64,000 nt of DNA from Octopus vulgaris (taxonomy: Eukaryota), in NCBI GenBank assembly GCA_951406725.2, contig OX597821.1, positions 74,834,001 to 74,898,000 on the forward strand, read 5' to 3'. Below the pieces are notes generated by a model, which did not search any database, had not been told where the DNA came from, and saw nothing but the letters and a program-made list of their open reading frames with translations. A program made the translations under genes and the position numbers. Positions 4,051 through 59,454 of this stretch are shown here, piece after piece (position 1 is the stretch's first letter; the number at the start of each line of letters is the position of its first letter).

Positions 4051-4845
4051 TGTCCTCATTCTTATCTATCTGCCTTCTTATGTACATAAGTACAAAGATA
4101 AATTTATACATATCAAAATACTCTCTCACTCTCTCTCTTTTTCTCTCTCTTTCTATCTACCTATCTATCTCCCTCTCCATTTTTCCCTATCTCTATTTTT
4201 ATAGGCAAATTATTAGATAAATAAATGCCTTCTTTTCTCTCATGTAACTGCCTTCATTTTGCGCTTCCAGTTCTGCATTGTGATTTTTATGACATTTTCT
4301 CCCGTCTATTTACGTCTTCCATGAACACAGAACCAGAATACAACAATAACAACAACAACAACACAGAAATGCAACTACATTAAACATCTTCTTATCAGTT
4401 ATTTCTCATCCCAAGAAAGTGTTGCCAATCACTTTAGACATTATAGTTTAAGATAACCCAGCATCATTAAGTATAACATATTAATACTTAACAATAACAG
4501 CTAACACTTTAGAAATATTTGCTTATAAGATCTCTGATTGAGGAGCTAAAGGACCAGCAACTTCTCTTCCTTATATCCCCTCCTTTTTTCCCCTTTACAT
4601 CAGGCCCTGGCCCTCATCTATATATCTTACGTACAAAAGCTATCCCCCAGTCTGCCCTCTTTTCCAAACTTAGCATTGCTTCTGTAAACAAAATAATTAA
4701 ACAAATAATCGGCACCAACACCATTTAAAATACATCCACTGCCTAAAGGCCCTTCAATATTTTAAACTAGGAGGTGTTTTTTGAAAATAAGTTTCGACAT
4801 ATATAGACAGCCGCATCCCCCCCCCCCGTGGCCGCTTTCTTCTGG

Positions 4846-40274: not shown

Positions 40275-41878
40275 ATTGCATTTCTATTTTCGACGATGCC
40301 TTCGGGTTTGCTGTCGTACCAATTTTTTGCTTTGTCAAGTCCATACTTGTTGCAGAGTGTCCAATGGACAAGCCTAGCTATATTGTCGTGGCATCTCTTA
40401 TATTCCATCTGGGTTAGTGGAGTACATTGGCTGGTAATATGCCATATGATTTCACCATTTTGTCCACAAATTCTGCACTTATCACTTTCTGCTGTGTTGT
40501 CCATTCTGTATTTTATGTAGTTTGTTCTTAGTGCTTGCTCTTGGGGAGCACAGATTAGAGCCTTCATTTCCGGTTTTAAATCACATTTAGTCATCCACAG
40601 CCATCTTTTTTCTCTGTCTGTCTTATCTTCAACATCCCTTTGAAATTGATCATGCATTCTTTTCTTTACCCATCTATTTTCAGTTTTATTCATTTTTATT
40701 TCTTGTATAGTGCTTTATCTTTGCAATCTTTCATCCTACACAAGCCTGACCTTCCTACTTCTAATATTAGCGGTTCTGTGGCATTTTTTTACATACCATG
40801 CTATGTTGTTTTCTTCTGCTCTAATGCTGTGTTCGCATCCAATAAGTCCTCTTCCCCATCTTTTTCTTCATACATATAGTCTGTCTGTGTCACTTTTTGG
40901 GTAGAGTGACCTATATCTAGTTAGCAACTTCCTTGTCTTTCTGTCTAAGCTGTTTAGTTCGTCTACTGTCCATGCTCCATATCTAAGTAGTGAAATCGCT
41001 CAAGTGTTGATAGATTCGATCTTATTCCGTCCATTTAATTTCAACTTAAGGATCAGTCTCAGTCTGCGCAAGTTCTCCACCTTAAAGTTTTCTCTCATTT
41101 CTTTCTCCAACAATTTATCCATTTCCAGTATCCCCAAATACTTATAGCCCGTCTCTGCTTCATAACCTCCCCCGTCGGTATCGTTAGCCCGTCCATACAT
41201 TTGATTTTGCCTCTCATCAAGACTAACACACCATACTTTCTCAGTCCGAACTACATTCTGATATCAGCACTGAAAGTATACAGCGTATCAACGAAGGGAC
41301 TGACTTGGGCTTCATCTTTACCATAAAGTTTGAGGTCATCCATGAATAACAAATGATTGACATTTTGTTGGAAGCTTTTAAATACGTACCCAGCTTTAGC
41401 TTTCCTCAGAATCAGTGTTAGTGGTATCAAGCACAGTAAAAATATCAGTGGGTACAGGAAGTCCCCTTGGAAGATGCCCCTCCTAATTTCTACTGTCCCT
41501 TAAACTTCTTTCGTATGCTGTCAGGTCCGTCCTCAAATTCGCCATACGTTTTCCAAGCAATCGCTCAACATTCGATGCAATACTAAATAAGTTCATACAC
41601 TCCATAATCCAAGAGTTTGGGATCATATCGTATGCCTTACAATAGTCGATCCATAACATGGCTAAGTGACTTTTCCTCCTCTTGCAGTCTGTAAGTACAG
41701 TTTTGTCTATCAGGAGTTCATCCTTGGTACATCTGCACTTACGCTTGCAACCCTTCTGCTCATGTGGCAGGACTCCATTTTTTTTTTCCAGATGTTCGTA
41801 CATTGACTCTGCGAGTATTCCAGTCAATAACTTCCACATAAGTGGCAAACAGGATATCGGCCTGTGATTGTCTACCGA
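40275..41878 (-). pseudogene. R4/Dong-clade non-LTR retrotransposon remnant (RT plus CCHC knuckle), truncated at both ends
   Basis: [107 protein letters not shown]; stops and frameshifts. The 5' end abuts a (TAA)n tract. Confidence 0.93.
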
Positions 41879-41892
41879 TATTATTATTATTA

Positions 41893-41947
<55 letters not shown>

Positions 41948-41949
<2 letters not shown>

Positions 41950-42335
41950 GCAGAATCGTTGACACGTCGGACAAAATGCTGAGCAACATTTCGTCCGTCT
42001 TTACATTCTGAGTTTAAAAAAAAGAAACCAAGATCGATTTTCCTTTCGGACGAACGAAAGAAGTACTAGCTGCACACTGGGTCGATTTAATTCACTTAAC
42101 TCTTCCCCCAAAATTCTGGCCTTGTGCGTGTAATAGAAAGCATTATTACTAACAGGGAGGGAGCTGGCAGAACCATTACAGTGCTGCAGGATTAGTTTTG
42201 GCTCTTTAGATTCTGGGTTCAGATTCCATCAGAGTCTATCATTCATCTTTCCATTGTTGTAATTGATGCAGTCTATTAATTTCGACCCTTAAAATTTCGG
42301 GCCTTTTTTTTTTGCTGCATTTTAAAAAAGCTGTA

Positions 42336-55970: not shown

Positions 55971-56215
55971 CACTACAAACACACTCATACACACATACAC
56001 ACACACACAAACACAAACACACATACACATATTCATGTGTGGCTGTGTGGTAAGAAGGTTGCTTCCAAACCACATAATTCCGGGCTCAGCCGCGCTGCGT
56101 GGCACATTGGGTAGGTGTTTTCTTGTGAGTGAATATGGTAGACGGAAAATGAAAGAAACCTGTCGTATATATATATTTCCCTGTAAATTTGGATTTATTC
56201 CCTAATATTTATTAT

Positions 56216-56265
<50 letters not shown>

Positions 56266-56352
56266 ATAATAAATATTAGGGAATAAATCCAAATTTACAG
56301 GAAAAATCAGATTTAGGATTGAATCCAATTTTATAGTAAAATATTATATAAT

Positions 56353-56578
56353 ATTAATTAGAGACAAAACCACTACTTTGCAAATCAAACAAGGAAAGAC
56401 TTAATCAATACATAAAAAATTTTAATATAAAGTAAATAAATCGCCACTACAATTGTTTCCTGTCTTCAAATGACAGGAAACAATTGTAGTGGCGATTTAT
56501 TTACTTTATATTAAAATTTTTTTATGTAATGATTAAGTCTTTCCTTGTTTGATTTGCAAAGTAGTGGTTTTGTCTCTA

Positions 56579-56584
<6 letters not shown>
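56353..56584. repeat. About 112-bp-arm near-perfect palindrome centred on a hammerhead helix II
   Basis: Arms 56353-56464 and 56472-56584 with about 2 differences; centre ctgtc-ttcaaat-gacag-GAAAC-AATT-GTA-gtgg. Confidence 0.95.
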
Positions 56585-56644
<60 letters not shown>

Positions 56645-56645
56645 A

Positions 56646-57040
56646 TAGAGCCAGGGAGAAGAGTAGTTAAAAAAGTCCATGCATGTTGAATGGCCGTTAT
56701 TTTTAACTAGAAGAAGGGCATTTGCCCTTGGTACGAAAATGATGTAAGGCCAGCCTGATAAATGAAATGTGTCTTATGGTCGGTGTGGTTAAATACAAAG
56801 CTAGTTTCACGTTTAAGGAACAAACTAAATAAATCAATTTTTAAAAAAATCAATTTAATCTAAATAAGTATATACTGTGATCTTCAGTTGTATTAACCTG
56901 GCTGACCTTAGCACATGCTTCATTTATCTCGCTCGCCTTACATCATTTTCGTACCAAGGACAAATGCTCTTCTACTTAAAAACAACGGCCATTCAACACG
57001 CATAGAATTTGGTTTTTAACTGCTCCTTCCTCCCTCTCTA
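56646..57040. mobile_element. Long-TIR MITE inserted in (TA)n
   Basis: About 150-bp imperfect TIRs (tgttgaatggccgtt...cttggtacgaaaatgatgtaaggc and its reverse complement); TA|GAG...CTC|TA termini. Confidence 0.85.
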
Positions 57041-57044
57041 TATA

Positions 57045-57099
<55 letters not shown>

Positions 57100-58161: not shown

Positions 58162-58174
58162 TAACATTTATTTA

Positions 58175-58622
58175 CCCATAATTTATAGGGCAGTAAGAAG
58201 ATGGAGGGGATCAAGAGGTCGTATTCATCAACTTTTAGACATTATACTATGTCTATTTGTTTATTTAAAAAAAATACAATTATAATAATATATATACATG
58301 TATAACAGATTATGCTTAGCATATATAAAAATACCAGTAATTATTAAATATATTTTAAAATAGTAAAACAGAGAGAAGTCATAAATATATGCTGTAAGAA
58401 ACTAGTCTACTTTCTATTTTTTACGGTGTATATTTTAATAATTATTAGTATTTTTATATTTTTATATATTATATATGTAAAGCATAATATGTTGTACATG
58501 TATGTATATTATTATAATTGTTTTTTTTTTTAATATGTAAATTGACATAATATAATGTCTATAAGTTGATGAATACCACCTCTTGATCCCCTCCATTTCC
58601 TTACTGGCGTATAAATTAAGTG
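58175..58622. mobile_element. Fold-back MITE, possibly piggyBac-type
   Basis: About 190-bp imperfect TIRs (atggaggggatcaagagg..tattcatcaactt and its reverse complement). Ends ttta|cccataatt ... aattaagtg|taaa resemble TTAA|CCC..GGG|TTAA. Confidence 0.8.
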
Positions 58623-59454
58623 TAAAACAACTTTTTACCCTCATCCATTTATTACACTCGGTAATGTAATTGCCATGCAATAATAAACACCTGTGTATTA
58701 ATAATTGGGTTTTCTACCAGCAGCATATTGGATAGATATTATCCCTTAGTTATTTGGATTCACAACCTCTAACTCTCTTTTAGAATTATATATATATATG
58801 TGTGTGTGTGTATGTATATGCATATGTGTGTGTGTGTGTGTGTGTGTAAATTTATATAAATATGGATAAGATCGTTATTTGAAATACCGATCATATCAAG
58901 TGGCCAGCCTGGAAATAAAAACCTTATTGGTAATAATTATTATTGGAATTATAATTAAGCTAAGGATATCTAAAATATACCACAAAACTTGACTTAGAAA
59001 CCACATCAAATATCGGATAATTCCAGATCTAGAAATCCACACCTGGAATCATCCAATAAATCTTTTGCTAGTTTATTTTGTCTCTTTGTCTTTTCTCCTG
59101 GTGCTGTATGAATATCTCATGAGGTTTAAGAGTCAAGTTTTGACTGCTATCTCTAGCATGGTGGTATCTTTTAGATACCCTTAATTATAATTTTATATAT
59201 GTGTATGTGCGTGTGTGTGTGTGTGTAAATATATGAGTATATGTATATGTATAGATATACTACATAGATATATGTGTGTCTGCGTATATATATACATATG
59301 TGCACGAGCAAATAGACACACACACACATATAAATATGAAGTTAGAAGAGGACCATGGAATAACATTCTTATTCTTTTGACTTTTAATTTCTTATTCTTA
59401 CTCTGCACTCGACTGACGCATTATTCTGAAGCAAATATATATTAATTTGTGGGG

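What the first reader, a model, noticed from the sequence alone, without database searches (positions are those of the whole stretch)
56353..56584. 230-bp palindrome created by fold-back exactly at a hammerhead helix II
Seen in the sequence: 112-bp arms with about 2 differences. The apex is ctgtc-ttcaaat-gacag, immediately followed on both strands by GAAAC-AATT-GTA-gtgg. That is the 3' half of a hammerhead (GAAA box, perfectly palindromic helix III acaattgt, GUA triplet), while the CUGANGA half is absent. Inference: during reverse transcription the cDNA snapped back on the helix II hairpin and copied itself. That would give a concrete mechanism for the inverted pseudo-LTRs typical of Penelope-like insertions, and would also create a long dsRNA substrate for ADAR or Dicer.
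Basis: partly seen in the sequence, partly recalled or inferred. Interest (0 to 1): 0.75.

Follow-up and report, generated by a model that had tools for sequence, protein, structure and literature searches.

The report
Twin-primed Penelope stub, truncated hammerhead
This mirror-image stretch is a short leftover of a Penelope-type jumping gene that has lost half of its hammerhead RNA motif; the turn-around at the hammerhead stem occurs only here, and the sister copies suggest such mirror images likely form when both cut DNA strands start copying the same RNA and the two copies are then joined back to back.

Summary
The palindrome is real (z −36). Sister copies carry the missing CUGAUGA half (137 exact cores) and lead into intact ~840-aa RT + GIY-YIG ORFs with Hydra-clade motifs. 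So this is an inverted-pLTR stub of a Penelope-like element in (TA)n, a known arrangement. The helix II apex is unique: 1 hit in 2.8 Gb. It is a 4-nt microhomology (GACA), not a 5-bp stem. Of 36 one-tailed junctions, 3 have snap-back geometry with a stem of 3 nt or more. In 13 the tail-less arm is the longer one, and 8 leave no loop. Tail-less arms end at one fixed base (35 of 37) and also occur alone. The two arms share variants and splice state (0 of 31 mixed). Best reading: two primings on one mostly spliced RNA, joined head-to-head. Snap-back or a later central deletion cannot be excluded for this single locus. Independent reads neither confirmed nor refuted the junction, and no evidence of a double-stranded RNA was found. 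This scan has already noted twin-primed Penelope stubs in other genomes. New here: the Hydra clade, splice concordance and tail-only arms.

The parts
56264..56475 (-). Tailed arm: sense copy of the pLTR/5' UTR from element position +8 (5' strand of helix II; +0 = C of CUGAUGA) to +223 (start site A)
   Evidence: 98% identity to the working reference; coordinates
56264..56344 (-). ~80-nt 'tail', present on one arm only; in ORF-bearing copies it lies ~50 nt upstream of the ATG
56472..56592 (+). Tail-less inverted arm, element +19 to +141 (start site B, a fixed end in the family)
   Evidence: 35 of 37 tail-less arms in pairs end at +141
56472..56475 (.). 4-nt junction microhomology GACA, supplied by the helix II stem
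   Evidence: intact copies continue with T after 56475
56461..56475 (-). Hammerhead helix II: 4-bp stem, 7-nt loop
   Evidence: stem invariant and loop variable across 6 sister hammerheads
56444..56459 (-). 3' half of hammerhead: GAAA, palindromic helix III, GUA triplet, GUGG strand of helix I; CUGAUGA half missing
56477..56492 (+). Mirror copy of the same 3' half
56376..56376 (.). Private variant (C; mirrored as G at 56561) carried by both arms
   Evidence: 2 of 122 arms carry it, both at this locus; the family base dominates in public contigs
56220..56261 (.). (TA)n target, left
56586..56641 (.). (TA)n target, right (first bases overlap the arm end)
56176..56217 (+). Second 42-bp stub of the same family (+181 to +223), tail-to-tail with the main element across the left (TA)n; probably a separate insertion

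Best explanation
This is a dead-on-arrival stub of the front end (pLTR/5' UTR) of a Penelope-like retrotransposon with Hydra-clade motifs, inserted in a (TA)n run, and it likely formed when both nicked target strands primed reverse transcription on the same element RNA at two fixed sites and the two cDNAs were then joined head-to-head. Shown: family identity, the two fixed 3' ends (+141, +221/223), (TA)n targets, variable junctions enriched for short microhomology, and one template for both arms. Inferred: (1) the GIY-YIG endonuclease nicks both strands of (TA)n; (2) one 3'-OH primes at site A (tail end), the other at site B (tail start); (3) the A-primed cDNA either stalls at B, giving tail-only arms, or displaces the B cDNA and reads on, giving a palindrome; (4) RT usually runs to the RNA 5' end near -41, but here stopped at +8 and +19; (5) the two cDNA ends annealed through GACA/TGTC, which any stem in the RNA supplies, and were repaired. 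The hammerhead is a truncated passenger, predicted inactive because CUGAUGA is gone and the hairpin sequesters the rest.
For: Family: 137 exact hammerhead cores; 150 scored RT matches, many in open frames over 800 aa; 8 of 12 fetched ORF loci have this UTR or hammerhead upstream in the sense orientation, the others only an inverted copy or none. Two fixed ends: of 152 arms, 72 end at +141 and 63 at +221-223; 118 of these 135 abut (TA)n. Site B is used alone: 21 of 35 arms with no partner in the fetched DNA are tail-less. Geometry of 36 one-tailed junctions (40 total, 1 segmental duplicate dropped, 4 without a single tail): 13 tail-less arm longer, 8 loop under 3 nt, 12 tailed longer with stem under 3, 3 snap-back-like. 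Tailed arms starting at +125 to +134 beside a long tail-less arm: 6 rows, 5 after the duplicate, plus L128. Microhomology of 4 nt or more in 7 of 22 junctions vs 2.9% null, p 2e-6. Same template: 18 shared substitutions vs permutation mean 4.2, max 10; subfamily marker concordant in 29 of 30 pairs; splice state 22 spliced/spliced, 9 unspliced/unspliced, 0 mixed (hand count). In vitro precedent: PAc cleaves and extends both strands and starts at two sites that bound the tail (PMC11167929).
Against: This locus is itself one of the 3 junctions that fit snap-back, so it does not discriminate. Recombination between arms could flip spacers and turn 'tailed longer' into 'tail-less longer'; it would not explain tail-only or zero-loop cases. 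Shared variants and splice state are equally expected from self-copying, and partly from gene conversion. The fixed +141 end could be endonuclease trimming (PMC8557442 suggests EN-mediated resolution for tails). The sample is biased to young copies with an intact core or arm (100 of 137 places listed, 40 of 965 candidates scored). PAc is reported to start at RNA sites not homologous to the target, so pairing of (TA)n with the AU-rich sites is only my inference. Target-site duplications cannot be read in (TA)n.
Confidence: 0.55

Rival explanations
1. Snap-back: the tailed cDNA stopped at +8, its 3' end paired with the helix II complement 11 nt back, and RT copied the cDNA onto itself.
For: Geometry fits exactly: the tailed arm holds the loop, 4-bp stem, 7-nt loop. 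Both arms share a private variant. Self-priming was proposed for PLE palindromes (PMC3846280, passages).
Against: Only 3 of 36 one-tailed junctions have this geometry with a stem of 3 nt or more. The stronger 8-nt palindrome of helix III and the helix I stem gave no such junction in an exact-pattern search. It does not explain why the copy stops at +141 like solo arms do. A 4-bp stem is weak, and the intact hammerhead region folds no better than shuffles.
Confidence: 0.18
2. Later central deletion: an ordinary inverted insertion with its apex near -40 to -20 lost its centre by slippage between the two GACA copies that the long palindrome presents as direct repeats, removing both CUGAUGA boxes.
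For: It gives the identical junction sequence. Most family apexes lie upstream. Long palindromes are deletion-prone (recalled). Microhomology-mediated deletions disable many Penelope copies (PMC3846280).
Against: The product is still a near-perfect palindrome with a 7-nt spacer. Arms differ by only 2-3 changes, so little time has passed. Other arms also end inside the core (9 of 109), which fits early RT stops equally well.
Confidence: 0.2
3. Sequencing or assembly fold-back artefact.
For: The junction is unique.
Against: Arms differ at 3 places. The second arm ends at the family's fixed +141 site and runs into (TA)n and unrelated flank. 40 comparable junctions exist at other loci.
Confidence: 0.04
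4. Ordinary MITE with terminal inverted repeats.
For: Short, non-coding, inverted, many copies, TA context.
Against: Variable apex, one-sided tail, solo arms, a precise splice junction (75 spliced vs 37 unspliced arms), hammerhead, and continuity with RT-EN ORFs.
Confidence: 0.01

Closest known systems
EN+ Penelope-like element insertions with inverted 5'-truncated pLTR and one-sided tail (PMC3846280, passages; PMC8557442, passages)
   Same: Head-to-head inverted pLTR, tail on one arm, palindromic junction, hammerhead in the pLTR just after an intron, AT-rich targets.
   Different: No ORF between the repeats; tail ~80 nt rather than 30-40; the junction cuts through the hammerhead. Most arms are spliced, which argues against the antisense-template self-priming model of PMC3846280 for this family.
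Hydra clade of PLEs, including Hydra-1_Obim (PMC8557442, passages and supplement file 1 part 2)
   Same: C-terminal GIY-YIG, DKT, CxCX5C linker, CxxC and CxH motifs, (TA)n targets, hammerhead with an extra base on each side of a 4-bp stem II.
   Different: RIKWK instead of RWK; ORF 820-860 aa with an Asn-rich insert; hammerhead sequence differs from the one listed for Hydra-1_Obim, so it is another family. No tree was built.
PAc (Anolis Poseidon) in vitro system (PMC11167929, parts 1-2 of 4 and passages)
   Same: Two internal RT start sites bounding the tail; both target strands cut and extended; uncleaved RNA used as template.
   Different: Different clade; the ORF starts ~240 nt after the core, not at stem II. 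The text I read does not connect the two start sites to inverted pLTRs ('inverted' occurs once, for a dT block); its supplementary figures were not seen.
LINE-1 twin priming (Ostertag and Kazazian; recalled, not read)
   Same: Two target strands prime on one RNA and the cDNAs are joined by microhomology; the tail-only arms look like this.
   Different: L1 products do not duplicate sequence and the second site is variable. Here both sites are fixed and read-through duplicates the segment into a palindrome.

Membership tests
EN+ Penelope-like element | Single ORF with PLE-type RT and C-terminal GIY-YIG endonuclease linked to this end | tested here: met
   ORFs of 821-862 aa at 12 fetched loci; RT and EN motifs read by eye. 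Pfam gave no family hit above cut-off.
EN+ Penelope-like element | pLTR with inverted truncated copy and one-sided tail | tested here: met
   36 of 40 junctions have exactly one tailed arm
EN+ Penelope-like element | Intron in the pLTR, spliced or retained | tested here: met
   GT..AG intron of ~1.2 kb in L062; 75 spliced and 37 unspliced arms
EN+ Penelope-like element | Target-site duplication | tested here: inconclusive
   Target is (TA)n on both sides
Hydra clade | DKT, CxCX5C linker, CxxC and CxH motifs | tested here: met
   DKT128, CTCRDKSNC688, CYLC794, CRH823 in L115; definitions
Hydra clade | N-terminal RWK motif | tested here: inconclusive
   RIKWK here; database homologs have RWK/RWR in the same columns
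Hydra clade | (TA)n insertion preference | tested here: met
   118 of 135 ends
Hydra clade | Absence of CCHH in EN; placement in an RT tree with named Hydra elements | not tested
   No reference Hydra proteins were brought in; no tree built
Type I PLE hammerhead (this locus) | CUGANGA core upstream of helix II | tested here: not met
   Absent on both strands; present in sisters
Type I PLE hammerhead (sister copies) | Helix I, core, extra base after position 9, helix II, GAAA, palindromic helix III, NUH | tested here: met
   layout matches Hydra rows and features in PMC4209133. The G10.1-C11.1 pair is replaced by U-A. Rfam gave no hammerhead hit; stems are invariant, so no covariation.
Type I PLE hammerhead (sister copies) | Self-cleavage | not testable with these tools
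   Needs a bench assay
MITE | Fixed terminal inverted repeats, uniform length, no RNA intermediate | tested here: not met
   Variable apex, tail, splicing

The most novel reading that the evidence does not exclude
Inverted pLTRs and tails of Penelope-like elements are the direct footprint of twin priming at two fixed sites on one spliced sense RNA, with strand-displacing read-through deciding between tail-only and palindromic products. This Hydra-type family shows each step (solo A, solo B, stall at B, read-through, blunt join at the RNA 5' end), and two copies begin at the predicted hammerhead cut.
Probability: 0.55. Interest if true: 0.6.

Novelty: new member of a known kind. Interest (0 to 1): 0.35.

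Why it matters
The locus itself is ordinary. The family matters because the origin of tandem and inverted PLE structures is named as an open question (PMC8557442). The census makes a sharp, testable prediction for the existing in vitro PLE system: head-to-head products should need both target strands and one RNA. It also argues against both helix II snap-back and antisense-template self-priming as the general route. Young intact ORFs and Hydra-clade motifs make this family a second possible experimental model.

Tried and rejected
Helix II as a fold-back hotspot: 1 hit. Helix III or helix I apexes: no other inversion with these flanks 60 nt apart or less (exact patterns, so diverged copies are missed). 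Rfam: no hit in the window at gathering score; no hammerhead among 23 weak hits in L002 and L115. Pfam: no informative hit for the element ORF. Pfam on 82 filtered window ORFs gave only two RT fragments near 41.3-42.0 kb, so no host gene was found; short exons would be missed. Independent support for the junction: contigs only, none bridging. This is inconclusive, since the runs may be other individuals or species and filters drop records. No RNA holder was listed, which is no evidence on expression. The anchor script missed variant copies and was replaced. The exact-junction part stopped at internal variants and was replaced. Its splice tally (11, 8, 0 mixed) missed overlapping pairs, so I use a hand count. 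Stalling at the hammerhead core: 9 ends in 37 nt vs 10 in the next 87 nt, in a biased sample, not interpreted. Literature searches for Penelope + twin priming + inverted (2 papers, listing only, neither about PLE mechanism by title) and searches found no statement of the twin-priming model. The library lacks most subscription papers, including the 2005 and 2006 PLE reviews.

Full report
Observation. The window holds a near-perfect inverted repeat with arms 56345-56464 and 56472-56592 (2 substitutions, 1 indel) and a 7-nt spacer. It folds at -174.6 kcal/mol, z -36. The element is larger than reported: the left arm runs on as an ~80-nt tail to 56264, both sides abut (TA)n, and a second 42-bp stub of the same family sits across the left (TA)n at 56176-56217.

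What it belongs to. One arm finds 965 first-look candidates in the 2.8-Gb genome, 40 scored, giving 53 matches. On the strand that matches the window's minus strand, sisters carry a full type I hammerhead with CUGAUGA; 137 exact cores exist. Helix II is TGTC/GACA: the stem is invariant and the loop varies among six sisters. L062 and L063 link this end to RT and GIY-YIG pieces. A protein search gave 150 scored matches, many in open frames over 800 aa. In 12 fetched ORF loci the same UTR lies ~50 nt before the ATG where present, usually with a sister hammerhead of different loop. The protein has DKT, CxCX5C, CxxC and CxH motifs, which PMC8557442 gives for the Hydra clade (passages); its supplement lists Hydra hammerheads of the same layout. 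Named database homologs at 34-38% identity are from a cephalopod; the host was not determined. No tree was built, so clade membership rests on motifs.

RNA intermediate. An intron of ~1.2 kb ends 13 nt before the core, the position described for D. virilis Penelope (PMC4209133, passages). Of 112 arms crossing it, 75 are spliced and 37 are not. 5' ends pile up at -41 to -30 (56 of 109 arms), the presumed RNA start (inference). 3' ends fall at two places: +141 (72 of 152) and +221-223 (63 of 152). This matches the two RT start sites that bound the tail in PAc (PMC11167929, parts 1-2 read).

Testing the snap-back idea. The exact junction occurs once, and no other copy has the tested helix-I flanks inverted 60 nt apart or less. 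I mapped 41 head-to-head junctions, dropped one segmental duplicate, and set aside 4 without a single tail. Snap-back of the tailed cDNA needs the tailed arm to be longer, with a stem and a loop. That holds for 3 of 36, this locus included. Twelve have the right asymmetry but a stem under 3 nt. Eight leave no loop, among them two blunt joins at -41/-40 at different loci. In 13 the tail-less arm is longer. Five independent insertions have a tailed arm starting at +125 to +134, just past site B, and L128 is a sixth. Tail-less arms end at +141 in 35 of 37 pairs and make up 21 of 35 arms with no partner in the fetched DNA (some unspliced ones may have partners beyond it). Microhomology of 4 nt or more is enriched, 7 of 22 against 2.9%; helix II is one of 32 inverted matches of 4 nt or more in this region.

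One template. Paired arms share 18 substitutions against a permutation mean of 4.2 and maximum of 10, and a subfamily marker agrees in 29 of 30 pairs. The window's private variant is in both arms and in none of the other 120. Splice state agrees in all 31 inverted pairs whose arms both cross the splice site: 22 spliced, 9 unspliced (hand count). Independent RNAs would give about 41% mixed. This excludes two unrelated RNAs but does not by itself separate snap-back from twin priming.

Mechanism. The simplest account of all classes is twin priming on one RNA at sites A and B, with stall or read-through at B, and end-joining of the two cDNAs by whatever complementarity their ends have. All steps are inferred from end points. 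For this locus, snap-back (0.18) and a later deletion between the GACA repeats (0.20) give the same sequence and remain open. The hammerhead here lacks its catalytic half and is buried in the hairpin. Public contigs did not bridge the junction and no host gene was found, so neither independent confirmation nor a dsRNA role is shown.

Comparison and novelty. Inverted pLTRs with a one-sided tail and palindromic junctions are described (PMC3846280, passages; PMC8557442). PMC3846280 explains them by self-priming on an antisense template, noting that this would keep introns; the mostly spliced arms here argue against that for this family. I found no printed twin-priming model in four searches, but subscription reviews and PAc's supplementary figures were not seen. 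The bioRxiv paper 10.64898/2026.07.22.740005 was only term-searched. L1 twin priming is recalled, not read. I had written down the two-priming reading, which then showed that this scan noted it in several other genomes; those are unchecked AI notes, not support. Verdict: new member of a known kind, interest 0.35.

Noticed in passing
L128 (G000:C2:11083928) and L129 (G000:C6:125503833): Two arms begin within 0-2 nt of the predicted hammerhead cut site, as expected if cleaved RNA were copied; TA microhomology with the target explains them equally well. No control count was run.
   Followed up: partly
L063 (G000:C2:150.679-150.685 Mb), 4577-4660: Internal inversion in a near-full-length copy joins the antisense tail to the RT coding region through a stretch of chance similarity.
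   Followed up: partly
G000 C2:179435115 and C8:94924838; C18:48710175 and C25:11662894; C5:103853821 and C13:82474720; C1:104628970 and C17:9836240: Identical inversion junctions recur at different loci: microhomology hotspots or the RNA 5' end, or copying of a fold-back unit.
   Followed up: partly
window 56591-57098 and 58171-58626: Two older, unrelated inverted-repeat elements (~78% arm identity) next to (TA)n; probably MITE-like. No hammerhead core found by the window scan.
   Followed up: no
L002 about 1240-1360: An unrelated ~120-nt near-perfect hairpin beside a spliced solo arm.
   Followed up: no
L115-L126 ORFs, aa ~480-570: Asn-rich insert between RT and EN, recalling the N-rich inserts of rotifer Penelopes (PMC3846280).
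   Followed up: no
L127 (G000:C22:33.80 Mb): Four hammerheads of another subfamily within 1.2 kb, as two inverted pairs.
   Followed up: no
window 41254-42013 (-): Two reverse-transcriptase fragments (Pfam RVT_1, below cut-off) of an unrelated retroelement.
   Followed up: no
window 47460, 51887, 28748: Loose CUGANGA...GAAA matches from the regex scan; not examined.
   Followed up: no
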